From Candidatus Moranbacteria bacterium CG10_big_fil_rev_8_21_14_0_10_35_21 (GTDB lineage: Bacteria; Patescibacteriota; Minisyncoccia; Moranbacterales; UBA2206): 64,000 bases of DNA. This document shows positions 3,093 to 26,804 of this stretch, in pieces. Below the pieces are notes generated by a model. It saw only the letters and a list, made by a program, of their open reading frames with translations, was not told the DNA's origin and searched no databases. How positions within the stretch are numbered: the stretch's first letter is position 1; each line of letters begins with the position of its first letter. Location: contig PFCG01000018.1 of assembly GCA_002773095.1 (NCBI GenBank), positions 25,008 to 89,007 on the forward strand. Direction: 5' to 3'. The translations under genes and the position numbers were made by a program.

Positions 3093-4723
3093 TTATTTTT
3101 CTGGATTAGGAAGAGAATTTAAATATTGTGCCGCTTCATATTCTCCATAGCCCCAAGCATCAGTTACGACGTATTTTTTTGGTAAAAGAAAACTTTCATA
3201 ATTTAAATAAAAAGGTTTTATTTTCCAAAGAGAAAAAATTCCCGAAAAAATAATGATTATTAAAAACATCCAAATATTATTTCTTTGAAATAATATTTTT
3301 TTAATTTTAGTTAGATTACTGAATTCATAAATTCCTACCGCTGCTAAGAAAGCATAAAGAGGATAGAGGATAATACTGTATCTTGGATTAGCTAACACGC
3401 CGGAAAATAGGGTAGCCACAAAATATAATAAAGTAAAAAAGGTAATAATAAAAACCGGGAGTTGATATTGCTCTAACTTTCCAAATAGCATTTTTCCCCA
3501 GAGAAATAAGATAGCCATTATTATAATTGGGGTTAGAGAAAAAAGAAACGGCTGAATTTCAATAGCTACTTTGGTTATTAATTTTAAAATTGGATTATAG
3601 TCCGCCAACATTGGAAAGATAAGATCCTTATCAATAAAAGCTTCCTCTTTCACATCACTAAGGGGAACTATGGGATTTTTTAGATAAGGATTGATCAATA
3701 TAAATATAAAAAAACCCAATAAAACGAAAGCGGTTATTTTGAAAATAATCTGTTTATTTTTGCTAAAAAATTTAGCCATAGTTTCTATGACTCTGCTTTT
3801 TAATAAAAGCGCATCGGACAATAATATTCCTAAAAATGCGATTATTATGGAAAAGATTGATTCAAGAGCTGGCGAACCAATAGTTCCCCTATAAAGATAT
3901 TTAATTTTAATAAAGACCGCCGGCATAAACAGACTGAAAATAGCCACCGACGCAAGCGTAATTATCAAAAAATATTTTAACTGTTTCAATATATATTCTT
4001 TCACGCCCTGCTTATCTTTTATCGCCGAAAAATTAATCACTAAATCAGAAAAAAACATTAATATGAAGAGCGGAAAAAGAATATTAGCGGTGTATTTGGA
4101 GAGCAAACTAGCTCCCAAAAATAGGGCAGTTAATCTAATAAATTTACGCTCATCGGTTTTGAGAAGTGCAAAATAAGAAAAAATTGAAGCTGAAGAAAAA
4201 ACCCAAAAAAGAGCATCAGGGTTTATAATTTGTGACATACCCACTAAAATCGGGGAAAGCGCCATGAATACCATTGTTAATAACGCTAGCCAATCATTAT
4301 CTGTAATTTTTTTAATTATCCAAAAGAAAAAACTAAAAATAGAGCATTGAAAAGCAATATAGGAAAACGAAGAGAAAAATTTATTTTGTCTGTCTTATTT
4401 GAGTCATAAACCGTATAATTTTCATTTTCAGTAATTTTTGAATCGCGTATGCGATGTTCTTCTGGATTCGGCTCAGCCAATAGCCCTACACCCGAAATCA
4501 AGGCCACTGATACCCCCGGCTTATCATTAATATAGGTCTTTTTCCAATTTTGATTTTTTAGAGCTTCCCAATATTGTGGAACACGTTCACCTTTCCAAAA
4601 ATGTTCATCCACCGTTTCAAACTTCTCCAAATGATATAATCCAAAAACAAAAAATAAGATTGCTGACAAAAAAACAAACCCATAAATTACTACCTGCTGT
4701 TTTTTGGGATTTTTTAAAATCAC
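3093..4723 (-). pseudogene. PMT/ArnT-like GT-C glycosyltransferase paralog, split into two ORFs (4316..4723 and 3093..4274) by a frameshift in a poly-T tract
   Basis: The upstream ORF carries TM1 plus the loop-1 TVDEHFW (DE motif) and DKPGVSVALISGVGLL. The downstream ORF carries ALSPILVGMSQIINPDALFW. Both parts are collinear with the intact neighbour at 4736..7084. The frames meet at about 4322..4332 inside the coding-strand run TTTTTTCTTTT. Confidence 0.55.
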
Positions 4724-4735
4724 GGAATTTTATTA

Positions 4736-7084
4736 TTATTTTATATAACTAATATCAATATCTTCGGCTCTTATTATTTTAATATAATTACTTTTGCGAT
4801 TGCCTAAATTTATTTGATATTCCGGCTTTTCATAATCATAGAGCTTGTCAAAACGAACCAAATATTCTGCGTTATTATTTACTTTATTTAAAATATCACG
4901 AGTATTTTTAGCTCTTCTTCCCACTGAAACAACATAATAATCAAACTTTGTTTTATTGAGCATAAGTTTTTTGAAATCCATACTGACAGAGCAATTTCCT
5001 ATAAAAAATTCGCAAACCCCACTCTTGTCAGACCAGATGTTTAATTTATAGGCCTCAGGAATTTTATTGAGATATTCTGCCGCTTCATAGGATCCATCAC
5101 CCATATCCTTCAGGTTAAGCACATATTTTTCCGGAAGCAAAGAAATAGCGTAGCTAAAATATAAGGAATTTAATTTAAACAAAGAAACCAAGCTGACAAT
5201 TATAATTAGAGTTGCTAAAATAATTTCTTTTTTTGAATATTTTAGATATTTATTCATCCAAAGAAGAAAATTTTCTATTCCCATAGCAGACAAAATAAAA
5301 ATCAATGGATAAATAATGATTTGATAGCGAACAGTGGCGCCGACATGACTAACGGTGGAAGCAAAATAATAAAAAAGTGTAAAAGTAATTAAATAAATGG
5401 CTACCCTTAACTTTTCCGAAATCAGGTTATTTTTTTTGAGAATAAACATACCATAAAAAATCACCGAAGTTAAGACCAGCGGAGAAATTCCGAAGATCAA
5501 GGGATAAAAATTAGCTGAAAAAATCCCTAGAAAGCCATTTTTAGAATAGGCAGACTTTGGAGAGGCTAAAATTTCTTCAAAAGGAATAAAATGCATTCCG
5601 GAGTAAGTATTAAACAACGCCCAACCGATCCCCAACAAAAAAGAGAACGTGATTAAATAACCAAGTTCATACTTAATTTCTTCTAATTTATTAAAAGCCC
5701 ATTCAAAACCACGACTTTTAAAAATTATATAATCCGCTATAAGAAAAATAATAATACCCACGAAGATAGGCCAATTTTTTTCAAAGGCTTCACTATATAT
5801 CGTGGCAATTAATAATCTCTTCGGTTTCAACCAAACAGCCGGATAAAGAATATAGAAAAACGATAGCGCTATGAAAACAATGGAACCAAAATCAATTAAA
5901 GATTTTTTTATATAGGCTTGAATTTTTTCTGTATTATTTTTATTAAAAATATATTCTAAGAATATCATTCCGAGAAAAAAGGCTACTAAAATATTAGAAA
6001 CATATTTCGTCAAAAGAGACAACCCTAAAAACAATCCAGTTAGAAAAATATATAGTAGCTTACGATTTTTTAGAAAATTTAAGTGAGCCAGAAAAGATAA
6101 TGGTAAAAACAGCCAAAGTAAAGCGTCAGGATTTATCATACGTGACATTCCTAATAGAATAGGGGATAATCCTATAAATAGATATGAAAAGAGAGCTACC
6201 GTTTTTCCCAAAAGCCTTTCCGTCAAAAAATAAAATAATGGTAATGAGAAAACGATAAAAATAAAAAGTGGCACCCTCATGGCTCGATTAAGGTTCTCCA
6301 AATTTTTAGGATTTGAATAAATAAATCCTTGCCATTTTATAGATTTATATTCTTTGGGATTTTCCCAAAGAAGGCCAACACCAGAAAGATAGGCCACCGT
6401 TGTTCCGGGCTTATCACTCACACGAGTATTTAGCCAATCTTTTTCGGCTATATTTTTCCAAAATTTAGGAATACGTTTATAGAGCCAAAGTGGCTCATCG
6501 ACTAAAGCTTGTTTTTCTATATTATGAAATCCAAAGCTGAAAAAAATCGAGGTTATTATGGTCACCAAAAATAGATAAACCCACCCTTGCTGTTTAATCC
6601 ATTCCTTTATATTTATTTTCTTTTCGGAGCTTCGTATATTTTTAAAATAATATTTTCCCAAAATAAAAGCGCCTATTAAGATTATATAAACTCCTACTCC
6701 TAGGTGAATAAGATTGTTAAACTCTCCCTTGATTGAAATTCCCCATAAAAAAATTATTTCGGATGGTAGCCAAATAAGTATTACTGTGAAGATGTTATGT
6801 TTTATTTTACCCCATTTGGTATTGAAAAAAAGAAAAATTCCTATCCCTACGCAAAATAAGATAAAGAAAATTCCATAAATAACCTTATTGGAAATAATTG
6901 TCTCCGGTCCTAAAAAATGAGCTTTATTTTGAACATACATTATTGAGAGAACAGCCAAAAGGAAAGAAATTAAAAAATATAATTTTTTTTCTAAGATAAC
7001 TCCATATAGCTTATCGAGTAGTTTCATACAGATATATACAATATTACTTTTTTTTATTATAATATATATAAGCTCTATGTTCAA
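4736..7084 (-). CDS. PMT/ArnT-like GT-C fold membrane glycosyltransferase (GT39/GT83-like, PMT_2 type) with an extra N-terminal TM bundle
   Basis: Loop-1 ALVDEPLW (DE motif), DKPGTTVAYLSGVGLL, GLSPILLGMSRMINPDALLW, more than 12 TM helices and a C-terminal soluble domain. The start is more likely at 7027 (MKLLDKLY), which removes the overlap with the divergent gene. Confidence 0.7.
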   Translation of the reverse strand: MNIELIYIIIKKSNIVYICMKLLDKLYGVILEKKLYFLISFLLAVLSIMYVQNKAHFLGPETIISNKVIYGIFFILFCVGIGIFLFFNTKWGKIKHNIFTVILIWLPSEIIFLWGISIKGEFNNLIHLGVGVYIILIGAFILGKYYFKNIRSSEKKINIKEWIKQQGWVYLFLVTIITSIFFSFGFHNIEKQALVDEPLWLYKRIPKFWKNIAEKDWLNTRVSDKPGTTVAYLSGVGLLWENPKEYKSIKWQGFIYSNPKNLENLNRAMRVPLFIFIVFSLPLFYFLTERLLGKTVALFSYLFIGLSPILLGMSRMINPDALLWLFLPLSFLAHLNFLKNRKLLYIFLTGLFLGLSLLTKYVSNILVAFFLGMIFLEYIFNKNNTEKIQAYIKKSLIDFGSIVFIALSFFYILYPAVWLKPKRLLIATIYSEAFEKNWPIFVGIIIFLIADYIIFKSRGFEWAFNKLEEIKYELGYLITFSFLLGIGWALFNTYSGMHFIPFEEILASPKSAYSKNGFLGIFSANFYPLIFGISPLVLTSVIFYGMFILKKNNLISEKLRVAIYLITFTLFYYFASTVSHVGATVRYQIIIYPLIFILSAMGIENFLLWMNKYLKYSKKEIILATLIIIVSLVSLFKLNSLYFSYAISLLPEKYVLNLKDMGDGSYEAAEYLNKIPEAYKLNIWSDKSGVCEFFIGNCSVSMDFKKLMLNKTKFDYYVVSVGRRAKNTRDILNKVNNNAEYLVRFDKLYDYEKPEYQINLGNRKSNYIKIIRAEDIDISYIK

Positions 7085-8852
7085 CTTTATTGAAAAACTG
7101 ACCAGAAATAAAATATACCTAGTCGCCTTTGTTATTATTATTTTAATCGGCGCTTTTTTGCGTTCTTATCATTTCTCAGACTGGCTTCATTTTGAGATGG
7201 ATCAATCCCGAGACGCTAAAATTATATCTTTTGTAGTGGAAAATGGCATAGATAACCTTCCTTTATTAGGACCGCGAGCAGGAGGAACATTTTTACGACT
7301 AGGCCCAATTTTTTATTATATGGAATATGCTAGTGCGCTTGTTTTTGGAAACACGCCATCTGGCATGGCAGTTTTCAACCTAATTCTGGGAATAGCGGCT
7401 ATTCCAATTTTTTATTTTTTTTGCTTACGCTATTTCAGAAAAAAAATAGCTTTATCGCTAACATTGCTTTTTTCCGTTTCTCTTTTTATGGTACTGCATT
7501 CGCGCTTTGCTTGGAATCCTAATCCCTTAATGTTCTTTTCAATTTTAACTTTCTATGCGTTACTTCGCACAGTTGATCGTGAAGAAAAAAGAAAGGGCTT
7601 GTGGCTAGCCCTTAGTGTTCTTGCGTTAACAGTGAGTACTCAGCTTCATTTTTTAGCTTTTGTTTCTTATCCAATTATTTTTCTTATATTTCTACTTATC
7701 AAGCGTCCAAAAATTACGTGGAAATTTTGGATTATTTCTACCATAATAGTTTTATTTTTATATACGCCCTTTATTATAAATGAAATAAAAACAAAGGGAG
7801 CTAATTATGAAGAATTTATTGAAGCAGTTTCATGGAAATCATCCAAAAGCAAACGAACTTTTCCAGAAAAAATTCTCAGAGCCTATGAAGAAATTTCAGT
7901 GGGAAATTTTCTGATATTAAGTGGATCGGAAAATAATAATTTTTATCAAATTAAAAAGGTTAATCTTCCGGAAATCAAAGCTGGTTGCCCATCAAATTGT
8001 CGAAAGGCGATTTTATGGGGCATATTTCCTTTGTTTTTGTTTTTCGCATCCCTTATACTTTTTTTCAAAAGTCTAATTTCCGAAAAAGATCACAAAAGAA
8101 AAGACTTCTTGATCCTTGGGCTCTTTTGGTTTGGGCTGGTCTACTTAGTTCTTCTTTCACTGGCATTTGACATCTCGCCACGATTTTTTCTTCTAGCTGT
8201 ACCAGCGCCTTTTATTTTTTTGGGAATAGTTCTAGATTTTTTAGACAAAAAAATAAAATATGGAAAATGGGTTTGGATACTTTTAATTTTATTTTTAACT
8301 ATTAGTAACCTCAAATATACCAAGGAACGTTTTTGGCAATTGGAAAACACTCCTCGAGAATCTTTTAAGCCTACGTCCGACAGAATATTAAAAGAAAAAA
8401 ATAGAGTTACTCTGGAACAACAACTGATGATAATTGATTACGTCAAAGAAATTTATCAAAAAAATAAATACCCTGTGTATATCAATAGTGATGCCTATTA
8501 CAGAAGATCGTTTTTATATCATTTAGAGCAAATCAAAATACCAAGAGATGACTTTCGAGATGTTAAAATATATGAAAAAGGTAATTATTTTCTGATTTAT
8601 CCTACCCTTTCTAATTTTGATAAAGATATCGAAAAATATAATGTAGACTATAATCTTATTGAAAAAAAACAATTCGGAACGCTGCTAGTTTTACGTCTTA
8701 TTCCAAAACCAGAATCCATTCAGGCGATAATTCAGGAATTTAATGAAGAAAAAAATATCAGTACGGGCATTAATGTTCCCAAGCGCTATACCTGGGAAGA
8801 GCTATTTTCCGAAGAGACTGCGGGTGATAATGTTAATGAAGAAGATTTATAA
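7077..8852 (+). CDS. Polytopic membrane protein, probable GT-C-type glycosyltransferase (divergent PMT_2-like)
   Basis: TM1 is followed by an acidic loop HFEMDQSRDAKII. It has more than 10 TM helices and a C-terminal extracytoplasmic domain of about 200 aa, the same architecture as its neighbours. Confidence 0.45.
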   Translation: MFNFIEKLTRNKIYLVAFVIIILIGAFLRSYHFSDWLHFEMDQSRDAKIISFVVENGIDNLPLLGPRAGGTFLRLGPIFYYMEYASALVFGNTPSGMAVFNLILGIAAIPIFYFFCLRYFRKKIALSLTLLFSVSLFMVLHSRFAWNPNPLMFFSILTFYALLRTVDREEKRKGLWLALSVLALTVSTQLHFLAFVSYPIIFLIFLLIKRPKITWKFWIISTIIVLFLYTPFIINEIKTKGANYEEFIEAVSWKSSKSKRTFPEKILRAYEEISVGNFLILSGSENNNFYQIKKVNLPEIKAGCPSNCRKAILWGIFPLFLFFASLILFFKSLISEKDHKRKDFLILGLFWFGLVYLVLLSLAFDISPRFFLLAVPAPFIFLGIVLDFLDKKIKYGKWVWILLILFLTISNLKYTKERFWQLENTPRESFKPTSDRILKEKNRVTLEQQLMIIDYVKEIYQKNKYPVYINSDAYYRRSFLYHLEQIKIPRDDFRDVKIYEKGNYFLIYPTLSNFDKDIEKYNVDYNLIEKKQFGTLLVLRLIPKPESIQAIIQEFNEEKNISTGINVPKRYTWEELFSEETAGDNVNEEDL

Positions 8853-8872
8853 TTAGCTAATTTTTTAATTTT

Positions 8873-10453
8873 ATGGAATTTATCAAAAAAAATTTCTTAG
8901 TCATCTTTATCCTAATTTTACTTCTAGGCACGGCTTTGCGAGTGTATAATCTTTCTGGAACGTCTTTTTCGGCCGATGAATTTCTGGGCGTCAACACCGC
9001 CTACGGCTATGCTAAAACAGGCGAGTGGAGGCGCTGGGATTTTAATCTCAATAAATTATCCGAAGACCGATCTTATGCCTATACCATCTTTGACTTTGGA
9101 AACAAAAAAGACGCGGAAGAAGGTAACTATATCCGTGCTTGGATGTATAACGGTCAAATTGCAAAAGTTTTAAACTTTTTGCCAGCCTCCAAAGAATCAT
9201 CTTTTCGACTAGTCAGTGTCCTTTGGGGTATTGTTTCGCTCTTTTTATTGTATTTTATCGCAAAATTTTTCACCAAAAACAGAATTATTGGTCTTTTGAG
9301 CGCATTTTTGTTTGCCATTAGTATTTCAGGAATTATTTTTGACCGAAATATCAGAATGTATGCCATGCTTTTCCCATTCTATTTGATGTTTTCCTATTTA
9401 TTTTATCAATTCCTTGAGGGTGAGAAGAATTTTGGATACTCAATTATTGATAAATTGAAAAAAATAACTGGTCTTAATTTTGTTTACCTAATCCCTCTAG
9501 CGGTTATTGGATTGGTCAGTCTTCATCTGCATCTCCTTTCAGTTAATATTTTTCCGGTTGTTTTTGTTTATATCATAGCTAATGCGATTATTGAATTCAG
9601 AAAAACTGGAAAAAAGTTAAATCGCTATTCAAATTATATTATTCTTGCCGGTGCACTTTTTGTGATTTTCCTTCTGGCTTTTCCAAGACAATTTGCTCCA
9701 ATTTTAATGGGAATAGAATTTGAAAATCATTTCTCATATATTATTAGAGCCTTTTCGGATTATGCGAGCGCAATTCTAGCCTTTGGCACAATGATCTTAG
9801 GAATAATTTATCTCAATAAAAATCATAAAAAGGAATCACTGTTTTTGGTTTCATCACTTGTAGTGCCTTTTTTTCTCGCTATTTTTGTTTGGAATCGAAG
9901 TGTTGGTGATCAATACATATTTTTTATAAAATCCTTTTTAATTATTCTAATAGCTTCTGGAATTTATTTCTTGGCAGAATTTTTTGGAAAAACATTTTCT
10001 CAGAATAAACTAAAAATAGAACTAGCAACAATTATACTCGCCCTTATAATTATTCCCAACTATGCTTATTTTTTTCAGGAAAATAATACTTATCGTCAAA
10101 CTTCAAGCTCAGATAGCCCAAATTATAAAAAAGTTTTCGGATATTACTTAAAACATCAGCAAGATGGGGATGTTCTGGTGACTCGCTGGTTTAGAAATTA
10201 TTATTTTTCTGATGCTAATGCTAGGGTGGAAACTTTTGGTGGCGAAAGAGAGGATAAAGACATTAAAAAAATGACTGGGGAACGTTTGGCTGAAATTCAA
10301 AAAAACAACTCTTGCGGGTGGTTTATTTGGGCGGATAATGATGACGATTTTATCACGGCTGATGCTAAAGACTATGCTAGAAAGAATTTTGAGTTTATTA
10401 ATGACATCGCGGTGCGAGGCAAGATCACCGTTAATCATTGGTGTGATAAATAG
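8873..10453 (+). CDS. PMT/ArnT-like GT-C membrane glycosyltransferase
   Basis: TM1 is followed by the loop-1 FSADEFLGVNTAYGYAKTGEW (DE motif). It is polytopic and has a C-terminal soluble domain. Confidence 0.6.
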   Translation: MEFIKKNFLVIFILILLLGTALRVYNLSGTSFSADEFLGVNTAYGYAKTGEWRRWDFNLNKLSEDRSYAYTIFDFGNKKDAEEGNYIRAWMYNGQIAKVLNFLPASKESSFRLVSVLWGIVSLFLLYFIAKFFTKNRIIGLLSAFLFAISISGIIFDRNIRMYAMLFPFYLMFSYLFYQFLEGEKNFGYSIIDKLKKITGLNFVYLIPLAVIGLVSLHLHLLSVNIFPVVFVYIIANAIIEFRKTGKKLNRYSNYIILAGALFVIFLLAFPRQFAPILMGIEFENHFSYIIRAFSDYASAILAFGTMILGIIYLNKNHKKESLFLVSSLVVPFFLAIFVWNRSVGDQYIFFIKSFLIILIASGIYFLAEFFGKTFSQNKLKIELATIILALIIIPNYAYFFQENNTYRQTSSSDSPNYKKVFGYYLKHQQDGDVLVTRWFRNYYFSDANARVETFGGEREDKDIKKMTGERLAEIQKNNSCGWFIWADNDDDFITADAKDYARKNFEFINDIAVRGKITVNHWCDK

Positions 10454-10511
10454 TTACTAGCTAGCTAGTAGTTGGTAGTGAGTAGTTTGTAGTAAATTCA
10501 AATTATTTTTT

Positions 10512-12056: not shown

Positions 12057-12628
12057 AAGTTTTTTATTTCCTCAAAAATTTCTTCTTTATTCCGATTACC
12101 ATCAATTATTTTCAATTCAACTTCTTGCGCAAATTTATCATATAAATCTTTTTTGGTTTTTAAATATTCCAAACCTTGATCTGGTTTTCTTTCTCTTTGC
12201 ATAATTTGCTCCGGATCAGTTTGCAAATAAAGTGCCACTTCCGGTTTCGGCACTATCCTTAAGCCCGGCTTAAGGATAGTAGGATTTTTTGTATAAGATA
12301 AGTATTCAATATTAATTATAGAATCATAAAAATAGCGATCGGAAATCAGATAATCATAGTTGTTACTTAACTTGTTCAGTAACATTTTAAATCTCCATAA
12401 ATCAATCTTAAGAAATATTTTTCGCAACCATATTTTGCCTGCACTCGCGATCACAACACTCGGAGCCGAACCAGAAGCTTTATGACCGATCAGTTTATTC
12501 GCCAAACTAAACTCAATCGCATGGAAATAGAAGGCTTTCTTTTCCTGCGACTCCAGATAATTTTTGAGCAATTGTATTTGGGTGGACTTTCCTGATCCAT
12601 CTAAACCAGAAATGGTTATTATTTGCAT
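12044..12628 (-). CDS. tmk: Thymidylate kinase-like P-loop nucleotide kinase
   Basis: P-loop ISGLDGSGKSTQ and the DRY motif LISDRYFYDS, both hallmarks of dTMP kinase. The 3' end overlaps the flippase gene by 13 nt. Confidence 0.55.
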   Translation of the reverse strand: MQIITISGLDGSGKSTQIQLLKNYLESQEKKAFYFHAIEFSLANKLIGHKASGSAPSVVIASAGKIWLRKIFLKIDLWRFKMLLNKLSNNYDYLISDRYFYDSIINIEYLSYTKNPTILKPGLRIVPKPEVALYLQTDPEQIMQRERKPDQGLEYLKTKKDLYDKFAQEVELKIIDGNRNKEEIFEEIKNLCQL

Positions 12629-12632
12629 ATTT

Positions 12633-14162
12633 TTAATACATTAAAACCGCAATGGGTTCCATTTTAGCTACGGCTTTGACGATTTTGTTTTCTTCCATAC
12701 CTTGAATTACTTCTTCCACGTCTTTATAATATCCACGGTCTTGCAGAACCACACCCTTTGATTTGGCATTAAAAAGCTTCACGTGACTAGCTTTCATTTT
12801 TTGCATCAGCGCTTCTTTATCTTGTACAGTATCTGTCAAAGGATCTTTTCTGCGACCGGTTCCATGGCTGGCTGAGAAAAAAGTAGATTCATTTTCATCA
12901 GTGCCGACGGCCAAATAGGCGGGGGTACTCATCGATGAAGGAATAAAAACCGGCTCACCTGTTTGCGAAAACAAAGGATGATCTGCCATTCTGGCTGGAC
13001 CATTGGCTCGCACGGTGCCGTTACGATGAACAAAAACATCACGGCCAAAATGATTTTCCTTGTGGATGAAAACATGAGGTTTATCATAAAGTAATTCGAA
13101 TTCTGGATTTTTCCAAAAAACTTTTTCAATCGTTTGGTCAATTTGATGAGTGAGAATGGAGCGATTGGCAAAACCTTGGTTCGCCGCCGCATTGTGTGAA
13201 GTCAGAAATAATTTTCCTTCAATACTATCCGCGTCATAAGCAAAATATTCTTTTTTGTCTTTGTAGCCCTCAATTTTTTTATATAACTCTTTGAATTCCT
13301 TTTTATATTCAGTGCCAAAAAACATTTTCCCCAATTCAAGAATAACTTTTTGGCTAAAATGTTCTTTTCTTTTTGGTGTGTAAAGATACGACGCATATTG
13401 TCCGAGCAATCCTGAACCAGTATGGAGCAAAAATATATATTGACCGACTTTAATCCCAAATTTTTCCGCCACAGCGTGATCTTTAATCTCCGTGATTTTC
13501 ATTAAATCCAAAAAATGGTTTCCAGCTGCACCTAAAATTCCGAGGCGATATTGGCCGATATGCAAAAATAATTTAGGGATGGCGTTGAGAATATCTTTTT
13601 CGATCGGAATTGTGTCGGTTCCGCCATAGGCGGATCCACCTTCGGTGGAGAAAAAATTTCCGCTTTGAAAAGTATTTTCAATTTCATTTTTAGTTCTAGT
13701 TTGAAAAAAATCTTTGACTGCTGCGCTACCTTTGCGACAAATATCCATCACTAAAGAATAGGGGATTTTGGTGCCAACATAGGTTTTAGTTGGAACGGCT
13801 TTGATTAATTCATTGAAAAGTAAATCAATTTTTTCCGGAGTCAAATCCGCGTCTGTCAGATTGGTTTTCAAAAACCGCATTCCACAGTTGGGAGAAGTGT
13901 CATTAATTTGGGGCAAAAGAAATTTTTCCGACGCTACCACGGTTCCGGTAGGATTTTTGCGTCCTTTTTTGCTGTGAACATCACTCAAGGCCACAACGTG
14001 GCGAAAAACATGCGGGTCCGAGGCTACACCTTCGATTTCCGCCAGGGTATCATCGTTAGGCATCAAATCATCAGAAACATGCAAAATAGCCGGCACTTTC
14101 ATAGTGTCGGTTTTCAATTCTTTTTTGTGAACGGATAAATTTTTTATATTATATTTGCTCAT
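12633..14162 (-). CDS. rtcB: RtcB-family RNA ligase (3'-phosphate/5'-hydroxyl RNA-splicing ligase)
   Basis: LSDVHSKKGRKNPTGTVVAS, GAAGNHFLDL (the GNHF metal site) and ASHGTGR (His-GMP site). Confidence 0.8.
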   Translation of the reverse strand: MSKYNIKNLSVHKKELKTDTMKVPAILHVSDDLMPNDDTLAEIEGVASDPHVFRHVVALSDVHSKKGRKNPTGTVVASEKFLLPQINDTSPNCGMRFLKTNLTDADLTPEKIDLLFNELIKAVPTKTYVGTKIPYSLVMDICRKGSAAVKDFFQTRTKNEIENTFQSGNFFSTEGGSAYGGTDTIPIEKDILNAIPKLFLHIGQYRLGILGAAGNHFLDLMKITEIKDHAVAEKFGIKVGQYIFLLHTGSGLLGQYASYLYTPKRKEHFSQKVILELGKMFFGTEYKKEFKELYKKIEGYKDKKEYFAYDADSIEGKLFLTSHNAAANQGFANRSILTHQIDQTIEKVFWKNPEFELLYDKPHVFIHKENHFGRDVFVHRNGTVRANGPARMADHPLFSQTGEPVFIPSSMSTPAYLAVGTDENESTFFSASHGTGRRKDPLTDTVQDKEALMQKMKASHVKLFNAKSKGVVLQDRGYYKDVEEVIQGMEENKIVKAVAKMEPIAVLMY

Positions 14163-15270
14163 AAATTTCTTGATATTTTTGGGCTATTTTATTAATATCA
14201 AAATTATCTTCCGTGAACTTTCTGGCTTTTTCGCCTAATTTTTCTCGCCCCTCTTTACTGTGATAGAGACCAAGAATGGCATCCATAAGCTGTTTTGGAT
14301 CATCCCTTTTTATAATAACCGAATTATCCGGATTGGCGAATTCGGAAAAAATAGACAAATCAGAAACCACTACCGGCTTTTGGCAAGCCATTGGCTCAAT
14401 AGCCGAAAGGGGAATATCAAATTTCCCTCTCATATCATTCACTGGAAAAATAATCACATCAGAAGAATTATATAAATCATTCATTTCAAATATGGTATCG
14501 GTAAAAACCGCCATCTCTAAAATTCCGGCTTGGTCCAGTTTATTTATTACTTCCTGTTTTTTCTTTTTATCTGCCTTATGCTTAATCCGACAAGCAAAAA
14601 TAATTTTTATTTTTTTCTCCTGAAGAATTTTAGAAAATTTCATCATCATTTCTAAAATTACGTCAATACCCTTCAGTCGAACATATTCTCCAGGATAAGT
14701 TATTACAAACTCATCCGGTTTTACACCCCAACGATTCAACAGATAGGTCTTTTTGGGAGCAGGGGAATAATATTCCAAATCAATACCTGGAAATATTTTT
14801 TCCACATTTTGAAATCCCATCCTATTTAGCCTTAATTTGGAATGTTCCGAATAAGTCACGATTAAATTGCCAAACATCATTTTTTTTATTTCATTTTCTG
14901 AATAAATATCTTCTCGTAAGGTGGCAATAGTTTGAATAGATTTGGTTTTTTCGTTTTGAATAAAATATTTAGCTAAAAAAGTGTTTAACTTAGTGGGAGT
15001 GAAAATATAATGCATTAACGGATATTTTTTCCGATTTAATATAAGATGTAGAAATAATTTAGTTTTTTGCAATAAACTAAAATGATTAGAAGAATAAATA
15101 GGAATTTGAGTAACATTCTCTGGAAGTTCCGGAATCGGACCATTGGTTAATAAATTAAAATTGAAACTGGCCAAATTTTTGGACAAATAAAAAGCGAAAT
15201 TTTTGGAAGCTTCATCCCAAGGGGGAGTAATTGGACGAGTGACTAAAAGAATTCTTTTATTATTTTCCAT
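14149..15270 (-). CDS. GT4-family glycosyltransferase
   Basis: C-terminal DIPLSAIEPMACQKPVVVSD (E-x7-E-like region) with Rossmann-like halves. Confidence 0.65.
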   Translation of the reverse strand: MENNKRILLVTRPITPPWDEASKNFAFYLSKNLASFNFNLLTNGPIPELPENVTQIPIYSSNHFSLLQKTKLFLHLILNRKKYPLMHYIFTPTKLNTFLAKYFIQNEKTKSIQTIATLREDIYSENEIKKMMFGNLIVTYSEHSKLRLNRMGFQNVEKIFPGIDLEYYSPAPKKTYLLNRWGVKPDEFVITYPGEYVRLKGIDVILEMMMKFSKILQEKKIKIIFACRIKHKADKKKKQEVINKLDQAGILEMAVFTDTIFEMNDLYNSSDVIIFPVNDMRGKFDIPLSAIEPMACQKPVVVSDLSIFSEFANPDNSVIIKRDDPKQLMDAILGLYHSKEGREKLGEKARKFTEDNFDINKIAQKYQEIYEQI

Positions 15271-15273
15271 TTT

Positions 15274-15630
15274 TTATTTTAAAATCTTATAAATTTCTTT
15301 CTTTTCAATACCATCAAAAACAACTACAGTTATTTTTTCTTTGGGTAAATTTATATTTTCTAAATTTATTGTTTTCTTTTCGCCTAATAAAACTTCAATT
15401 TCTCCTGATTCTATCTTACTCTCTCCAGCCAAAATTTCCCAATTAAAATTGTTTTGATTGCTGTGATTTTCAATTGCAAAACTTATTTCGGATTCCTTTG
15501 GATTTCCAAAATAAATTGACCACCAGCTAGATTGAAAATTTGGATTAAAATATTTTTTTTCTGCCCCAAAAAGCCAGAATGAGCTGACTACGAGGAGAAT
15601 AACTATTAATAAAATTATTTTTCTTTGCAT
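15274..15630 (-). CDS. Small secreted or membrane-anchored hypothetical protein
   Basis: N-terminal hydrophobic signal anchor MQRKIILLIVILLVVSSFWLF. Tightly packed between two other minus-strand genes. Confidence 0.35.
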   Translation of the reverse strand: MQRKIILLIVILLVVSSFWLFGAEKKYFNPNFQSSWWSIYFGNPKESEISFAIENHSNQNNFNWEILAGESKIESGEIEVLLGEKKTINLENINLPKEKITVVVFDGIEKKEIYKILK

Positions 15631-15638
15631 AAGTAAGA

Positions 15639-17513
15639 TTAATTGGTTTTATTAAAAATAGCTACTTCTGGGCTTAAATAAAGCAAATCAAAATTTCGAC
15701 TTCTTTTAAATTGGTCGCTATCAAAAGCCGGATTAACCGCCAAGAAATTAACGCCCGTCTCCTGAAAGCATTTTTGCCCTTTTTCTGATTCTGGGCTGGA
15801 AATCATCAATAATGTGCATTGTTCACGAGGATTAGTTGAATCTTCGTAGCGCTTAAAAAAACTGCGTGAAAGAGGATAACGATAACCGCGCATAAAAAAC
15901 AATTTCATCCACGCGTCGCCGGTTATATAATTATGATCTTTAAGCACATTATCGGTAGGAGTGGTATTCTTGGCTAAATATTCAGTAGCGTTAAAAGTTT
16001 GTATAAGTTCAGCGGTTTCCACCTTTCTTTTAAAAGCGGCGGCCGAATCATAAAGCCCTCCTACTAAAACAAAGGTTAAAATAATCACAAAAGTCAACTT
16101 GGCCAAAGTTCCGGAAACATAATTTTTAAATTGGGAAAAAATTATGAAAAAAGAATAGGCGCTTAAAATAGCCAGGGGATAGGAAAGATAATTACCAATT
16201 CGATTACTAGGCAAATCAAGAAGGAGCCATTGTGGCCTAGTAGCCATTAAAAATATAGCCAAAAACCAGGCCACTAAAATCGCATAACCAACATTTTTTT
16301 TCTTGAAATTAAGCACCATCAACAAAAGGGCAAATAATCCCAAGGCTAACCGAGGTTCGCCAACAGCCGATTTCAAGTTATTTAAACTTAATCCAGTTCT
16401 GGTTATTTTTTCTGGTGTGCCCACCGCCGTTTCAACGGAATTATTTTTTATATAATTAGGCGTAAAAACCAAAAGAAAAAAGATTAACCCAATGGCCAGA
16501 GCCGACAATACTGGAGGAGAAAAAACCAACTTCCTGATTTTAACAAATATTTCTTTTAGATTTTTGAGATTAACTGCCAAAAAAATCAGGATAGTAAAAA
16601 TAAAGACAAAAATGAAAATAAAAGCGGTCAAATGATGAGTATAGAATAATCCGAAGGTGATAAAAACTGCTAAAGCCAAAAATTTTCTAGCCAAGGAAAG
16701 GGTTAGGGATTCGTTTTGAAAAAAATCAAAGGCTCGAAAATAAAAATAAAGAGCCACTGGCATCAAAAAATTTCCAAAAATATTTCCAATTACTCCTCCA
16801 CTGACGAATTTTGACTGGGGAGAGGCAACCGCATAAAGAACACCCAAAAAAAGTAGTGACAGAATGGCAGTATTTTTATTTTTGAAAATTCGCAGCACCA
16901 AAAGAAAAACCGCTAAAATTCCCATCAAATTTATTAAGTGTAAGATAACCGTCGGAAAAGCAGAAAAAAAGCTCGCTCCACTAATGAGATTAACTATTCC
17001 AAAAACAATATGTTCGCCAATAATAAAATCTGGCATACCTTCATAGGTCGGTAGTTGTCCACTTTCAGCCATCCATTTGGCCCAATACATATGATGACCC
17101 ATATCGGTGGCGGTCGGCAAAATAGTTTGAGTAAGATAGGCTGTTTTTATAAAAAAAGTTAGAAAAAGCAGAACAGCTACCAACCAAAACTGGCGAGAAG
17201 AAAAATCAAAAATTTTCTCTTCTTTACTTTCAGAAAATTTGCGTAGCTTAAAAATAATCAAAAAAATAGCTGAAACCAAAACAATTCCGAAAATAGAAGA
17301 AGATCGAGTAATGGAAATTTGCAGTCGACTATAAACAAAAAAAATAAAATCAACCACCACTAAGCTCAAAGCAGGTGAGAGAATGAATTTTTCTATTTTT
17401 TCCAAACCGCCCTTTTTCCCAAAAATAGCCAACAGCAAAAAATACCCAGGCAAAAATAACACCAGAATTATGGCTAGATAGAATAATACTTGTGATTGAA
17501 TAAAAGTTAACAT
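15639..17513 (-). CDS. Large polytopic membrane protein of unknown function (possible GT-C-type glycosyltransferase or polymerase)
   Basis: About 14 TM helices and a conserved-looking loop TATDMGHHMYWAKW. It has a C-terminal soluble domain and is embedded in the glycosylation locus. Confidence 0.45.
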   Translation of the reverse strand: MLTFIQSQVLFYLAIILVLFLPGYFLLLAIFGKKGGLEKIEKFILSPALSLVVVDFIFFVYSRLQISITRSSSIFGIVLVSAIFLIIFKLRKFSESKEEKIFDFSSRQFWLVAVLLFLTFFIKTAYLTQTILPTATDMGHHMYWAKWMAESGQLPTYEGMPDFIIGEHIVFGIVNLISGASFFSAFPTVILHLINLMGILAVFLLVLRIFKNKNTAILSLLFLGVLYAVASPQSKFVSGGVIGNIFGNFLMPVALYFYFRAFDFFQNESLTLSLARKFLALAVFITFGLFYTHHLTAFIFIFVFIFTILIFLAVNLKNLKEIFVKIRKLVFSPPVLSALAIGLIFFLLVFTPNYIKNNSVETAVGTPEKITRTGLSLNNLKSAVGEPRLALGLFALLLMVLNFKKKNVGYAILVAWFLAIFLMATRPQWLLLDLPSNRIGNYLSYPLAILSAYSFFIIFSQFKNYVSGTLAKLTFVIILTFVLVGGLYDSAAAFKRKVETAELIQTFNATEYLAKNTTPTDNVLKDHNYITGDAWMKLFFMRGYRYPLSRSFFKRYEDSTNPREQCTLLMISSPESEKGQKCFQETGVNFLAVNPAFDSDQFKRSRNFDLLYLSPEVAIFNKTN

Positions 17514-17526
17514 AAAGTACTAATTT

Positions 17527-18642
17527 TTAATTAGAAATTGTCTTTTTTATTTCTTCCAAATATTTTTGGGAAATCTTATCCCAACTATAATTTTCGATAA
17601 TAAATTGCCGAGCCTTTTCTCCAAATTCTTTCCTCGAAAAATTATCTGACAAAGTTTCGTTAATTTTATTTATCCAGGCTTCGGCATTTTCCGATTCAAC
17701 CAAAAAACCATTTTGCCCATCTATTATAGCATCTTTTAGTCCTTCAAGATTGGAAGCTAGAACAACTTTTCCGCAAGCTCCGGCTTCAATGGCCGTAATT
17801 CCAAATCCTTCCATTGATCCTGCCACTTTTATGTTGGGGGAAACATAAAGGTCGCAAGTACTGAATAATATTTTCATGTCAGGACGCTGCAGATTAGTCA
17901 GCAAAATAACGCGCTTGGACAAATTCAAATCCTGAACTGCTTTCTCAATATTTTCATAATCATTAGTGTCTCCAGTTGTTTTTTTAGCTACCATTCCTCC
18001 GGCGACTACTAAAATATAATTTTCAGACAATCTAGGCATAACATTGCGCACAAACCAATCAACTCCTTTGTGTTTTACAAATCTCCCTCCTCGGAAAATT
18101 ATTTTTTTGCCTTCAAGATTTCTCCCTAGCAATTTTTCCAAATCAGGTCTGGAGTGATTTTCACAAACTTCATTCGCGTCCAATCCATTGGGAATAAAAA
18201 CGCACTTATCCTTCGGTATGCCAATTTTCACCGCTTCATTAATAGTCTCATTTCCCACCATTATTAATTTATCCATCTTTTTTTCAGAAGGAATATTCAC
18301 AAATTTATAAATTTTTCCAAAAAAAGAATTTTTTGAAGCATAAGTAATATCTAAACCATGAACGATACAAAAATATTTTTGCTTTCGATAAAAAAATTTC
18401 ATCACTGCGCCAATTGGAGACAGAACTCCGTCGCCGAAAACTATCGCATCATAGGACGGAATCAGAAAAAATAATTTCAATGTAAGCCACGGTAAAAAAA
18501 GAGGCAGAAATTTTTTGCCTTTTTTATTTGCGATTATTTTGGTTTCTGTTAGTTTTCCAAGAGCCTTGGCAATGCCATAATTTTGCATTTCAATTCCACC
18601 CACCACTGGAGGATAAGCCCGAGAAATGAAAAGTATTTTCAT
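17527..18642 (-). CDS. GT4-family glycosyltransferase
   Basis: MKILFISRAYPPVVGGIEMQ and SMEGFGITAIEAGACGKVVLASNLEGLKDAIIDGQNGFLVE (E-x7-E). Confidence 0.8.
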   Translation of the reverse strand: MKILFISRAYPPVVGGIEMQNYGIAKALGKLTETKIIANKKGKKFLPLFLPWLTLKLFFLIPSYDAIVFGDGVLSPIGAVMKFFYRKQKYFCIVHGLDITYASKNSFFGKIYKFVNIPSEKKMDKLIMVGNETINEAVKIGIPKDKCVFIPNGLDANEVCENHSRPDLEKLLGRNLEGKKIIFRGGRFVKHKGVDWFVRNVMPRLSENYILVVAGGMVAKKTTGDTNDYENIEKAVQDLNLSKRVILLTNLQRPDMKILFSTCDLYVSPNIKVAGSMEGFGITAIEAGACGKVVLASNLEGLKDAIIDGQNGFLVESENAEAWINKINETLSDNFSRKEFGEKARQFIIENYSWDKISQKYLEEIKKTISN

Positions 18643-18648
18643 AAAAAA

Positions 18649-19599
18649 TTATTTCTTGTATTTTTCCTTGCGCAGAAGATACATTTGGTCTTCCGATATT
18701 TTGCGATTGTTTTTAATCATATCCGCCATCAAAGCGAAAACTAAAAATTGCAGACCAACTAAAAGAAAAGTTATAGCCACTAAAAGAAAATTTTTATAGG
18801 GAGTGATTTTGAAATCCTGAAAATACATTAAAATAAAATAAATAAAGAAGCCCGCTGAAATCAAAATCATTATCAAAGAGGGGATACCGAAAAATTTCAT
18901 CGGACGCACATCACGCACCGCTTTTAAAATTATGCGAGCACTATTATTGACATAGTTGTAAACACTTTTTACCACTCGAGATTTTCTTCCGTCAAAATAA
19001 ATCACTTCTACCGGAACCCACTGAACTTTTAGATTTTTTCCAATGGCATCAATGATGGTTTCTTGGGTATAAGTAAAATTTCCCGGCAGGTTCAAGCGCA
19101 ATAAAGCCTCTTGGGAATAAGCGCGAAATCCGCAAGTCAAATCATTAATCTTATGATTCATAAACTTTCCGATAATCCATGCTGCCATGCGATTAAGATG
19201 ATATTTGGATCTGGGCATATTTTTTGCTTCATGATCTCCAAAGCGATCAGCGCTCACAATATCAGCCTTTCCCGCTAAAATCGGAGCTATTATTTTTTGA
19301 ATATCATTAGAATCAAATTGTCCATCCGCATCAATATTAACCATAATATCAGCCCCATTACGCAACGCCTTTCCAACCGAGGTTCTAAAAGTAATCCCGA
19401 TACCCCGATTAACCGGATGAGAAAAAACAAAATCAGCGCCAGCTTCGCGAGCTCTTTGAGCAGTTTGATCTTTTGATCCGTCATCAATAACCTGCATAAA
19501 AACCTCATTCACGCCTTCGATTTGCCGAGGAATTTTTTTAATGGTTTCGGCAATTTTATCCTCTTCATTAAACGCTGGAATATTAACAACTAATTTCAT
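18649..19599 (-). CDS. GT2 polyprenol-phosphate glycosyltransferase (DPM1 / GtrB / ArnC-like): donor-lipid synthase for the GT-C enzymes
   Basis: VVNIPAFNEEDKI...DDGSKDQTAQ, which is a GT2 DxD-type catalytic domain, followed by two C-terminal TM helices (LVAITFLLVGLQFLVFALMADMI). Confidence 0.8.
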   Translation of the reverse strand: MKLVVNIPAFNEEDKIAETIKKIPRQIEGVNEVFMQVIDDGSKDQTAQRAREAGADFVFSHPVNRGIGITFRTSVGKALRNGADIMVNIDADGQFDSNDIQKIIAPILAGKADIVSADRFGDHEAKNMPRSKYHLNRMAAWIIGKFMNHKINDLTCGFRAYSQEALLRLNLPGNFTYTQETIIDAIGKNLKVQWVPVEVIYFDGRKSRVVKSVYNYVNNSARIILKAVRDVRPMKFFGIPSLIMILISAGFFIYFILMYFQDFKITPYKNFLLVAITFLLVGLQFLVFALMADMIKNNRKISEDQMYLLRKEKYKK

Positions 19600-19666
19600 A
19601 TATTTTAGATCCTGAGACTCGTTTCGTCATTTAATAAAGACGAAATTGGCTCAGGATGACCAGAGG

Positions 19667-25580: not shown

Positions 25581-25584
25581 AAAT

Positions 25585-26793: not shown

Positions 26794-26804
26794 ACTAAAA
26801 CCTA

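What the first reader, a model, noticed from the sequence alone, without database searches (positions are those of the whole stretch)
3093..19599. Expanded array of PMT/ArnT-like GT-C glycosyltransferases with their own DPM1-like donor-lipid synthase
Within 16 kb there are three clear PMT_2-type GT-C paralogs, all with a loop-1 DE motif (3093..4723 frameshifted, 4736..7084, 8873..10453). Two further polytopic membrane proteins share that architecture (7077..8852, 15639..17513). A GT2 with two C-terminal TM helices of the Dol-P-Man synthase / GtrB / ArnC type (18649..19599) sits in the same region. Two flippase types (1886..2827 LPG-synthase-TM-like, 10512..12056 Wzx/MurJ-like) and several GT4 genes complete the set. 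By established knowledge this combination is the machinery for lipid-phosphate-sugar-dependent extracytoplasmic glycosylation of proteins or lipids. The number of GT-C paralogs in one locus is unusual. It suggests an elaborate protein O-glycosylation or surface-glycan system in a small-genome bacterium.
Basis: partly seen in the sequence, partly recalled or inferred. Interest (0 to 1): 0.75.

Follow-up and report, generated by a model that had tools for sequence, protein, structure and literature searches.

The report
Conserved GT-C glycosyltransferase envelope locus
This is a cell-surface sugar-building gene cluster shared by a whole group of tiny uncultured bacteria (Moranbacteria); it holds five membrane glycosyltransferases that work outside the cell and the enzymes that make their lipid-linked sugar donors. 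It is a real and tidy example of a known kind of machinery, not an oddity of this genome.

Summary
The region encodes five GT-C-fold membrane glycosyltransferases: 2824-4723 (broken), 4736-7027, 7077-8852, 8873-10453 and 15639-17513. It also encodes a DPMS/GtrB/ArnC-type polyprenyl-phosphate GT2 with two C-terminal TM helices (18649-19599), a Wzx/MOP flippase, a UPF0104/LPG_synthase_TM flippase-like protein and five GT4 genes.

Corrections:
- The five GT-Cs belong to four anciently diverged families; only one pair are sequence paralogs. They are not a recent expansion.
- The broken gene has two homopolymer indels that differ among near-identical assemblies.

The array is not unusual for its clade. 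The order GT2-LCP-GT4-Wzy_C-GT4 | UGDH-GT2-GT4-DUF6541-small-GT4-RtcB-Tmk-Wzx | PMT_2 array recurs in about 80 Moranbacteria genomes. A second GtrB-like GT2 lies just upstream of the window.

The context (LCP ligase, Wzy_C, UDP-ManNAc-dehydrogenase-like enzyme, TagA-like GT) favours a wall-linked glycopolymer or lipoglycan decorated outside the membrane. [quoted passage not shown] Protein glycosylation is not excluded. Interest is moderate.

The parts
724..1905 (+). GT4 glycosyltransferase 'a'. It overlaps the next gene by 20 nt.
   Evidence: Glycos_transf_1 5e-47, Glyco_transf_4. NCBIfam hits are non-specific.
1886..2827 (+). UPF0104 / LPG_synthase_TM flippase-like membrane protein 'b'
   Evidence: PF03706 120.6 bits. 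TIGR00374 flippase-like domain 64.7 bits against a cutoff of 43.2. Seven or more TM helices. The family is a predicted lipid or lipid-linked-sugar flippase (PMC5898192, PMC12713373).
2824..4723 (-). PMT_2-type GT-C 'c', disrupted by two homopolymer frameshifts in this window. It is intact (617-625 aa) in relatives.
   Evidence: Indel polymorphism among same-organism assemblies: site 1 is A6 versus A7 at 4321-4326; site 2 is T5 versus T6 at about 3091-3095.
4736..7027 (-). PMT_2-type GT-C 'd', 763 aa, with a four-TM N-terminal extension. VDE (D177-E178) is invariant in the first outside loop of the core.
   Evidence: PMT_2 1.2e-12. Homologs are named GT39/ArnT family in Moranbacteria. Invariant residues; TM map.
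7077..8852 (+). PMT/PMT_2-type GT-C 'e', with loop-1 motif D42-Q43..D46
   Evidence: PMT 35.9 bits and PMT_2 34.3 bits, both above GA. Motif conserved in 34 of 37 family members.
8873..10453 (+). GT-C 'f', a divergent ArnT/PMT-like fold. D35-E36 are invariant after TM1.
10512..12056 (-). Wzx/MOP-family flippase 'g'
   Evidence: Polysacc_synt 6e-26, MurJ, MatE. About 11 or more TM helices.
12044..14162 (-). Tmk-like kinase 'h' (12044-12628) and RtcB 'i' (12633-14162), co-operonic and syntenic. Their role in the system is unknown.
   Evidence: Syntenic in 56 and 66 of 82 loci.
14149..15270 (-). GT4 'j'
   Evidence: Glycos_transf_1 7e-18.
15274..15630 (-). 118-aa single-pass membrane protein 'k' with an extracytoplasmic domain of about 95 aa. 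It always follows the DUF6541 gene.
   Evidence: No family hit. One N-terminal TM helix. Present in 70 of 82 loci.
15639..17513 (-). DUF6541/DUF1616 protein 'l': a GT-C-fold enzyme with OST-like overall architecture (about 13 TM helices plus a C-terminal alpha/beta domain). Invariant residues are D137-x-G-H-H, E167 and T-H-H 292-294. It has no WWDYG motif.
17527..18642 (-). GT4 'm'
   Evidence: Glycos_transf_1 1.7e-34.
18649..19599 (-). Polyprenyl-phosphate glycosyltransferase 'n' (GT2, DPMS/GtrB/ArnC/AglJ type), with a DAD motif and two C-terminal TM helices
19965..21242 (-). Nucleotide-sugar 6-dehydrogenase 'o'. Its best match is UDP-ManNAc dehydrogenase.
   Evidence: TIGR03026 423 bits. UDP-ManNAc dehydrogenase models 311 and 249 bits, below the equivalog cutoffs.
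21672..27620 (+). Divergent operon: GT4 'p', Wzy_C (O-antigen polymerase/ligase-like) 'q', GT4 'r', LCP ligase 's', soluble GT2 't'
   Evidence: Syntenic in 27-51 of 82 loci; many loci are cut short by contig ends.

Best explanation
The region is the core of a cell-envelope glycan locus of about 31 kb that is conserved across Candidatus Moranbacteria (CPR/Patescibacteria).

**Proposed mechanism, with each step marked as shown or inferred:**
1. Membrane-anchored GT2 enzymes of the DPMS/GtrB type load a monosaccharide from a nucleotide sugar onto polyprenyl phosphate at the cytoplasmic face. These are 18649-19599 and a second one just upstream of the window. The family and architecture are shown; the sugar is unknown.
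2. The lipid-linked sugar is flipped by the UPF0104/LPG_synthase_TM protein (1886-2827) and/or the Wzx/MOP protein (10512-12056). This step is inferred.
3. Four to five GT-C-fold enzymes of four distinct families each transfer that sugar to a different position or linkage on an acceptor outside the membrane. Each has a conserved acidic residue in the first outside loop. The fold and motifs are shown; activity and acceptor are inferred.
4. The acceptor is most likely a wall-linked acidic glycopolymer, or a lipoglycan. It would be built by the five GT4 genes and a soluble GT2 using HexNAc-uronic acid from the dehydrogenases, exported by Wzx, polymerised or ligated by the Wzy_C protein, and attached to peptidoglycan by the LCP enzyme. 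All of these are encoded in the same conserved locus. This step is inferred from context.

One GT-C gene (2824-4723) is inactivated here by homopolymer indels that vary within the population. This is either a decaying pseudogene or an on/off switch.
For: **Family and fold:**

**Topology and motifs:** the DE, DQ and D-x-GHH motifs lie just after a TM helix, on the side opposite the K/R-rich loops.

**Organism:** Moranbacteria.

**Synteny:** gene order t-s-r-q-p | o-n-m-l-k-j-i-h-g | f-e-d-c-b-a recurs in 82 loci, down to 39% identity of the DUF6541 protein.

**Operon structure:** the minus-strand operon 10512-21242 is tightly packed, with overlaps and gaps from -14 to +67 nt.

**Second donor synthase:** a GtrB-like GT2 with a DGDLQNDP motif and two TM helices lies upstream.

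**Wall-polymer context:** TagU-like LCP, Wzy_C, a UDP-ManNAc-dehydrogenase-like enzyme, and a TarA/TagA-like GT at 40138-40971.

**Published frameworks:**
- GT-A C55-P glycosyltransferase plus GtrA or Wzx flippase plus a GT-C that is often PMT_2, decorating LTA, WTA and secondary cell-wall polysaccharides (PMC8035078).
- An AglD-like GT2 plus UPF0104 plus a PMT/STT3-like neighbourhood in archaea (PMC5898192).

**Indel polymorphism:**
Against: - There is no biochemical evidence for any step, and no CPR glycan structure is known.
- No initiating phosphoglycosyl transferase (WecA/TagO or Bac_transf type) is found anywhere in the 64-kb window. The undecaprenyl-PP-linked polymer arm is therefore incomplete here.
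- No GtrA-type flippase is present.
- LCP and Wzy_C families can also serve protein glycosylation (own knowledge: Actinomyces LcpA, PglL/PilO), so the context does not exclude protein acceptors.
- GT-C genes outnumber donor synthases (5 to 2), unlike the 1:1 gene pairs of characterised Gram-positive systems (PMC8035078, Table 1).
Confidence: 0.6

Rival explanations
1. This is dedicated protein O-glycosylation (Pmt-like). The PMT/PMT_2 enzymes would transfer hexose from polyprenyl-P-hexose to Ser/Thr of secreted proteins, pilins or S-layer proteins. This is what actinobacterial Pmt/Ppm1 and the Caldicellulosiruptor GT39 do.
For: - PF02366 (PMT) hits above threshold for 7077-8852 and for many homologs of 4736-7027.
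- DE motif in loop 1.
- NCBI names the homologs GT39.
- A GT39 enzyme is required for protein glycosylation in a Firmicute (PMC6151902, title and abstract).
Against: - No PMT_4TMC or MIR domain is detected.
- The profile of the 4736 family hits a solved PMT only at E 1.4.
- Characterised Gram-positive PMT_2 enzymes act on LTA, WTA and secondary cell-wall polysaccharides (PMC8035078, Table 2).
- The locus co-conserves LCP, Wzy_C, GT4 genes and uronic-acid enzymes, which are typical of wall polymers.
- Four to five distinct GT-C families are more than a single O-mannosylation step needs.
Confidence: 0.2
2. This is extracytoplasmic assembly of a lipoglycan, as in mycobacteria. GT4 'a' plus the UPF0104 flippase 'b' would make and flip a glycolipid anchor. 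The GT-C array would then polymerise and branch a homoglycan on it from one or two polyprenyl-P-sugar donors. The analogy is PimE/MptA/MptB/MptC for lipomannan, or AftA-D/Emb for arabinan.
For: - The genes for 'a' and 'b' overlap by 20 nt and are syntenic with the PMT_2 array.
- GT4 plus UPF0104 operons make and are proposed to flip glycolipids (gpgSDF, PMC12713373).
- The ratio of GT-C genes to donor synthases is high.
Against: - Similarity to the Aft, Emb and PimE enzymes is lower than to ArnT, OST and PMT.
- Nothing identifies the anchor.
- The GT4 has no specific glycolipid-synthase assignment; all hits fall below the equivalog cutoffs.
Confidence: 0.15
3. The genes are unrelated permeases or generic membrane proteins clustered by chance, so the GT-C reading is a false positive from hydrophobic sequence.
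For: - Two of the five proteins lack a Pfam GT-C hit above threshold.
- Profile searches against PDB sequences find nothing significant.
Against: - Acidic loop motifs are invariant.
- Synteny with the glycan genes is strict in about 80 genomes.
Confidence: 0.02

Closest known systems
Multi-component (three-component) transmembrane glycosylation systems of Gram-positive bacteria: CsbB/GtcA/YfhO, GtlA/GtlB, CsdAB/CD/EF, GacI/GacK/GacL (PMC8035078)
   Same: - A membrane-linked GT-A that makes C55-P-sugar.
- A flippase, which can be Wzx-type.
- A polytopic GT-C, often PMT_2, with an acidic motif in an outside loop.
- The acceptor is a wall or lipid-anchored glycopolymer.
- Several systems can coexist in one organism.
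   Different: - Here there are 4-5 GT-C genes of four families with only two donor GT2 genes, in a single conserved locus, rather than separate 1:1 pairs.
- There is no GtrA-family flippase; a UPF0104 protein is present instead.
- One GT-C belongs to the uncharacterised DUF6541 family.
- The organism is a CPR bacterium whose envelope polymers are unknown.
[not shown]
   Same: Several GT-C enzymes of different families cluster with the synthase of their shared polyprenyl-P-sugar donor and build a wall glycan outside the membrane.
   Different: - The donor synthase there is a UbiA-type phosphoribosyltransferase, not a GT2.
- Emb and Aft enzymes carry large carbohydrate-binding domains.
Archaeal Agl N-glycosylation clusters (AglJ, AglM, AglR, AglD-UPF0104, AglS/Agl23-like GT-C, AglB) and the archaeal GT2 + UPF0104 + PMT/STT3-like neighbourhood (PMC5898192)
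   Same: - The best NCBIfam hit of the GT2 is AglJ.
- The set includes a nucleotide-sugar dehydrogenase, a Wzx-type flippase and a UPF0104 protein.
- The PMT_2 proteins hit the Agl23 model weakly.
- The DUF6541 protein is closest in fold to STT3 and AglB, including the C-terminal domain.
   Different: - All equivalog scores are far below their cutoffs.
- The DUF6541 family lacks WWDYG in 62 of 62 members and has no STT3 Pfam hit.
- An LCP ligase and a TagA-like GT indicate a bacterial wall-polymer context.
ArnC/ArnT lipid A aminoarabinose system
   Different: - No ArnT or ArnC equivalog model reaches threshold.
- No ArnA, ArnB, ArnD, ArnE or ArnF is found.
- CPR genomes lack lipid A synthesis (PMC5220378), so that acceptor is absent.

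Membership tests
GT-C superfamily (GT-C_A fold) | A polytopic membrane fold superposable on solved GT-C enzymes | tested here: met
   [not shown]
GT-C superfamily (GT-C_A fold) | A conserved acidic residue at the start of the first extracytoplasmic loop of the core | tested here: met
   - D177-E178 (4736 family).
- D35-E36 (8873 family).
- D42 (7077 family).
- D137 (DUF6541 family).

The outside location is inferred from hydropathy and the positive-inside rule only.
Polyprenyl-phosphate glycosyltransferase (DPMS/GtrB/ArnC/AglJ-type GT2) | A GT-A catalytic domain with a DXD motif, followed by C-terminal TM helices, and similar to solved DPMS and ArnC | tested here: met
   Glycos_transf_2 5.5e-17. 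Best NCBIfam hits AglJ 1.7e-34 and PpgS 1.8e-28; weaker hits ArnC and PgfS. PDB hits 5mlz 4.2e-13 and 9hwj 1.2e-9. TM helices at 242-260 and 272-290. 'NIDADGQ' motif present.
Polyprenyl-phosphate glycosyltransferase (DPMS/GtrB/ArnC/AglJ-type GT2) | Membership of a specific equivalog, which would identify the sugar | tested here: not met
   All NCBIfam equivalog scores fall far below their cutoffs, for example AglJ 119.6 against 325. The sugar is undetermined.
Protein O-mannosyltransferase (GT39, Pmt) | The PMT N-terminal domain (PF02366) with a loop-1 DE motif | tested here: inconclusive
   PF02366 is above GA only for 7077-8852, which has DQ rather than DE. The DE motif is present in the 4736, 2824-4723 and 8873 proteins, which score only on PMT_2.
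Protein O-mannosyltransferase (GT39, Pmt) | The C-terminal PMT_4TMC domain (and a MIR domain in eukaryotes) | tested here: not met
   No PF16192 or MIR hit at E <= 0.01 for any of the proteins.
Oligosaccharyltransferase (STT3/AglB/PglB) | The WWDYG motif in the C-terminal domain and an STT3 Pfam match | tested here: not met
   [not shown]
ArnT (GT83) lipid A Ara4N transferase | The ArnT equivalog model, an arn operon context and a lipid A acceptor | tested here: not met
   No ArnT model hit at E <= 0.01. No arnA, arnB or arnD genes in the window. CPR bacteria lack lipid A genes (PMC5220378).
Multi-component transmembrane glycosylation system | A GT-A C55-P glycosyltransferase, a flippase and a GT-C encoded together | tested here: met
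   All three component classes lie in one conserved locus. The flippase candidates are Wzx-type and UPF0104, not GtrA.
Multi-component transmembrane glycosylation system | Demonstrated transfer of a sugar from C55-P-sugar to a wall polymer | not testable with these tools
   This requires biochemistry or genetics.
LCP-dependent wall glycopolymer pathway | An LCP ligase, a polymer export or polymerisation gene and a linkage-unit GT | tested here: inconclusive
   An LCP enzyme (TIGR00350, 91.7 bits against a cutoff of 62.3), Wzx, Wzy_C and a TagA/TarA-like GT at 40138 are present. No TagO/WecA-type initiating enzyme is found in the window.

The most novel reading that the evidence does not exclude
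The DUF6541/DUF1616 protein (15639-17513) would be a divergent, WWDYG-less oligosaccharyltransferase with STT3/AglB architecture. The pathway would run as follows:
1. The AglJ-like GT2 starts a glycan on polyprenyl monophosphate.
2. The flanking GT4 enzymes extend it.
3. Wzx flips it.
4. The DUF6541 enzyme, with its conserved 118-aa partner, transfers it en bloc to surface proteins or to the wall.
5. The PMT_2 array then adds further sugars from polyprenyl-P-sugar, as AglS does in Haloferax.

This would be an archaeal-style Agl pathway that is core to a CPR phylum. It would fit the absence of a phosphoglycosyl transferase in the locus, and fold searches rank OSTs first.
Probability: 0.12. Interest if true: 0.8.

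Novelty: new member of a known kind. Interest (0 to 1): 0.4.

Why it matters
The composition and assembly of the CPR/Patescibacteria cell envelope remain unknown (stated in PMC5220378). These bacteria live attached to other cells, so surface glycans are likely central to their biology. This locus gives a defined gene set, conserved across the phylum, for that envelope:
- two lipid-sugar donor synthases;
- two flippase candidates;
- four GT-C families;
- an LCP ligase.

These can be tested by heterologous expression. The work also assigns a GT-C fold and candidate catalytic residues to two proteins that the public records found here name 'hypothetical' or 'DUF1616 domain-containing' (8873-10453, and the DUF6541/DUF1616 protein). 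Finally, it shows population-level on/off indels in one GT-C gene, which hints at surface-glycan variation.

Tried and rejected
1. **Sequence searches against the PDB.** Single-sequence and profile searches for the four membrane proteins found nothing significant. Fold comparison was needed.
2. **Profile-profile comparison.** hhalign between the 4736, 8873 and DUF6541 families gave probability below 2%. They cannot be called sequence paralogs, and no phylogeny of all five was attempted.
3. **Exact look-up of the 8873 ORF.** The first look-up failed. It succeeded later via P0241.
4. **AFDB Foldseek library.** It was unavailable.
5. **RNA searches.** Rfam and tRNA scans of the window found nothing.
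6. **Programmed -1 frameshift at site 1.** Considered and rejected by eye: the T-run does not lie in X_XXY_YYZ register in frame 0. In addition, an assembly with one extra base restores the frame.
7. **Literature.**
   - No paper was found on GT-C arrays in Patescibacteria or Moranbacteria.
   - DUF1616 appears only as a glycosylated substrate in Haloferax.
8. **Initiating phosphoglycosyl transferase.** A search of every ORF of 100 aa or more in the window found none.
9. **ArnT/lipid A reading.** Rejected: no arn genes, and no lipid A in CPR bacteria.
Full report
**What is there**

The first 28 kb of the window is a dense block of glycan genes in five transcription blocks.

- **Plus strand, 82-2827:** the 3' part of a nucleotide-sugar dehydrogenase, GT4 'a', and the UPF0104/LPG_synthase_TM protein 'b' (PF03706, 120.6 bits).
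- **Minus strand, 2824-7027:** two PMT_2 proteins, 'c' and 'd'.
- **Plus strand, 7077-10453:** two more polytopic proteins, 'e' and 'f'.
- **Minus strand, 10512-21242:** a tightly packed operon with intergenic distances from -14 to +67 nt. In order: Wzx 'g', Tmk-like 'h', RtcB 'i', GT4 'j', a 118-aa single-pass protein 'k', DUF6541/DUF1616 'l', GT4 'm', GT2 'n', a 76-aa single-pass protein, and dehydrogenase 'o'.
- **Plus strand, 21672-27620:** GT4 'p', Wzy_C 'q', GT4 'r', LCP 's', GT2 't'.

**Checking the observation**

- **'d'** scores 48.8 bits on PMT_2 (GA 26.1).
- **'e'** scores above GA on both PMT (35.9 bits) and PMT_2 (34.3 bits).
- **'f'** scores only 22.8 bits on PMT_2, below GA, and **'l'** has no PMT hit at all. 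Sequence and profile searches against PDB chains were empty for all four.

I therefore built family alignments and AlphaFold2 models.

- **'l'** has pLDDT 82.8 and pTM 0.87.
  - Foldseek also ranks AfAglB first, at E 8.8e-7.

All five are therefore GT-C.

Each family has an invariant acidic residue just after a TM helix, on the side opposite the K/R-rich loops:
- VD177E178 in 'd';
- D35-E36 in 'f';
- D42-Q43..D46 in 'e';
- D137-x-G-H140-H141 plus E167 in 'l'.

Both 'd' and 'l' carry extra N-terminal TM helices, four and three respectively, ahead of the GT-C core.

GT2 'n' has a GT-A domain with a DAD motif and two C-terminal TM helices. It matches AglJ (1.7e-34), PpgS, ArnC and PgfS models, and the solved PfDPMS (4.2e-13) and ArnC (1.2e-9). 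This is the polyprenyl-phosphate transferase type, but no equivalog cutoff is reached, so the sugar is unknown.

**The broken gene**

One frameshift lies at an A6 run (plus strand, 4321-4326). A second lies at a T5 run near 3091-3095, after which the C-terminal 90 residues continue in another frame.

Ten near-identical public assemblies of the same organism were recovered. They differ from the window by at most four substitutions and indels per roughly 12 kb aligned. Between them they show three haplotypes:
- the window: both sites out of frame;
- L083, L084 and L091: site 2 in frame, giving a 483-aa C-terminal part;
- L092: site 1 in frame, giving a 543-aa ORF with PMT/PMT_2 hits.

No assembly has both sites in frame. 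Apart from these two indels, only five SNPs occur in 12.1 kb. In relatives the ortholog is intact at 617-625 aa.

This is either recent pseudogenisation or slipped-strand on/off switching. Consensus assemblies cannot tell these apart.

**Where it comes from and how common it is**

Homologs identify the organism as Candidatus Moranbacteria, from Crystal-Geyser-type CG metagenomes. The 100%-identical proteins carry locus tags COU40_01990 and CO139_00825 and are named 'hypothetical protein'.

Using the DUF6541 family as an anchor, 251 species-level genomes encode a relative, and the best 80 were fetched. tblastn of all window proteins against 82 loci shows the same gene order and strands down to 39% identity. 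Counts out of 82 loci:
- GT4 m: 74
- GT4 j: 73
- k: 70
- GT2 n: 68
- RtcB: 66
- Tmk: 56
- Wzx: 54
- UGDH: 51
- GT4 p: 51
- Wzy_C: 47
- GT4 r: 42
- LCP: 27

Many loci are truncated by contig ends or by the 10-kb flank.

Beyond Wzx, the loci carry variable sets of PMT_2-type genes (e-e, f-e, e-e-e, f-f-f). Fully visible relatives have f-e-d-c-b-a, like the window.

'c' and 'd' are ancient paralogs. Orthologs are 40-46% identical, while c versus d is 31-35%. 'e', 'f' and 'l' are not detectably related to them by profile comparison.

In the same genome, 2.4 kb upstream of the window start, lies a second GT2 of 312 aa. It has a DGDLQNDP motif and two C-terminal TM helices, and sits next to an epimerase.

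The array is therefore a phylum-level core feature, not an expansion in this genome, and it is served by at least two donor synthases.

The DUF6541-type family itself is small. Among 1.84 billion cluster representatives, 114 score at E <= 1e-30 and 947 at E <= 1e-3.

**Mechanism**

The component set matches the multi-component transmembrane glycosylation systems reviewed in PMC8035078. These have:
- a membrane-linked GT-A that makes C55-P-sugar;
- a flippase, either GtrA-type or, as in GacK, Wzx-type;
- a GT-C, often PMT_2, with an acidic motif in an outside loop.

The UPF0104 family was predicted to flip lipid-linked sugars, because it is fused to AglD and neighbours PMT/STT3-like genes in archaea (PMC5898192). 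It is also the proposed flippase of a GT4-made glycolipid in Pseudomonas (PMC12713373).

The co-conserved context suggests that the acceptor is a wall-attached acidic glycopolymer:
- a TagU-like LCP;
- Wzy_C and Wzx;
- five GT4 genes;
- a dehydrogenase whose best match is UDP-ManNAc dehydrogenase;
- a TarA/TagA-like GT at 40138-40971.

A lipoglycan built on a glycolipid from a+b is a close alternative. Protein O-glycosylation remains possible; a GT39 enzyme does this in Caldicellulosiruptor (PMC6151902).

No initiating phosphoglycosyl transferase is encoded in the window.

**OST-like reading**

'l' is closest in fold to STT3 and AglB, and sits between an AglJ-like GT2, GT4 genes and Wzx. However, WWDYG is absent in 62 of 62 family members, and there is no STT3 Pfam hit. 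It is therefore not a canonical OST. That it nevertheless transfers an oligosaccharide en bloc is the most novel reading left open, at about 12%.

**Verdict**

The finding is a new, well-defined member of a known kind of system in a poorly understood phylum. No literature on such arrays in Patescibacteria was found in the library searched. The CPR envelope is acknowledged as unresolved (PMC5220378).

Interest: 0.4.

Noticed in passing
window 12044-14162 (-): RtcB RNA ligase (Pfam 3.6e-66) and a divergent Tmk-like P-loop kinase are translationally coupled inside the glycan operon. The kinase scores 46.6 bits on dTMP kinase, below the cutoff of 83. The pair keeps this position in 66 and 56 of 82 Moranbacteria loci. 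There is no obvious link to glycan synthesis.
   Followed up: partly
window 4321-4326 and ~3091-3095: Two homopolymer length polymorphisms (A6/A7 and T5/T6) lie in one GT-C gene, among assemblies that otherwise differ from the window by at most four substitutions and indels per roughly 12 kb aligned. They give three different frame states and none fully in frame. This may be phase variation or a decaying pseudogene.
   Followed up: yes
window 15274-15630 (-) and 19667-19897 (-): Two small single-pass membrane proteins have no family match. The 118-aa protein always follows the DUF6541 GT-C (70 of 82 loci) and may be an accessory subunit. The 76-aa protein is Cys-rich.
   Followed up: partly
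window ~47200-54060: This block has GC 0.42 against about 0.34 elsewhere. It encodes:
- a PIN protein;
- a terminase large subunit;
- an HTH_Tnp protein;
- two N6/N4 DNA methylases, one with ParB_N;
- a large serine recombinase split into two overlapping ORFs (52670-53326 and 53283-54059).

It is probably a degraded integrated phage or mobile element.
   Followed up: partly
window 54138-63897: A lipid-like cluster:
- an Lnb_N protein;
- a NAD_binding_4 reductase;
- a CarS-like (CDP-archaeol synthase family) protein at 56165-56737;
- a GNAT;
- a CDP-alcohol phosphatidyltransferase at 57825-58445;
- an 864-aa PPDK_N/PEP-utilizer protein;
- a UbiA prenyltransferase at 60979-61842;
- a radical SAM/SPASM protein.

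These are archaeal-flavoured lipid genes in a CPR bacterium. Separately, the UbiA gene could be a polyprenyl-phosphoribose-type donor synthase.
   Followed up: no
window 40138-40971 (-): A WecG/TagA/TarA-family glycosyltransferase (115.7 bits) lies 13 kb from the locus. It implies a GlcNAc-ManNAc(A)-type linkage unit for a wall polymer.
   Followed up: partly
L091/L092 6111-8571 (same genome, upstream of window start): An NAD-dependent sugar epimerase, a second GtrB-like GT2 (312 aa, DGDLQNDP motif, two TM helices) and a bAvd-like 125-aa gene (an accessory protein of diversity-generating retroelements) precede the dehydrogenase whose 3' end opens the window. AbiEii toxin genes further upstream mark the locus boundary.
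   Followed up: partly
L004, L006, L007 and other genome contigs records: Many public MAGs carrying this Moranbacteria-type locus are titled 'uncultured Bdellovibrionales bacterium'. This is probably a taxonomic mislabel in the records.
   Followed up: no
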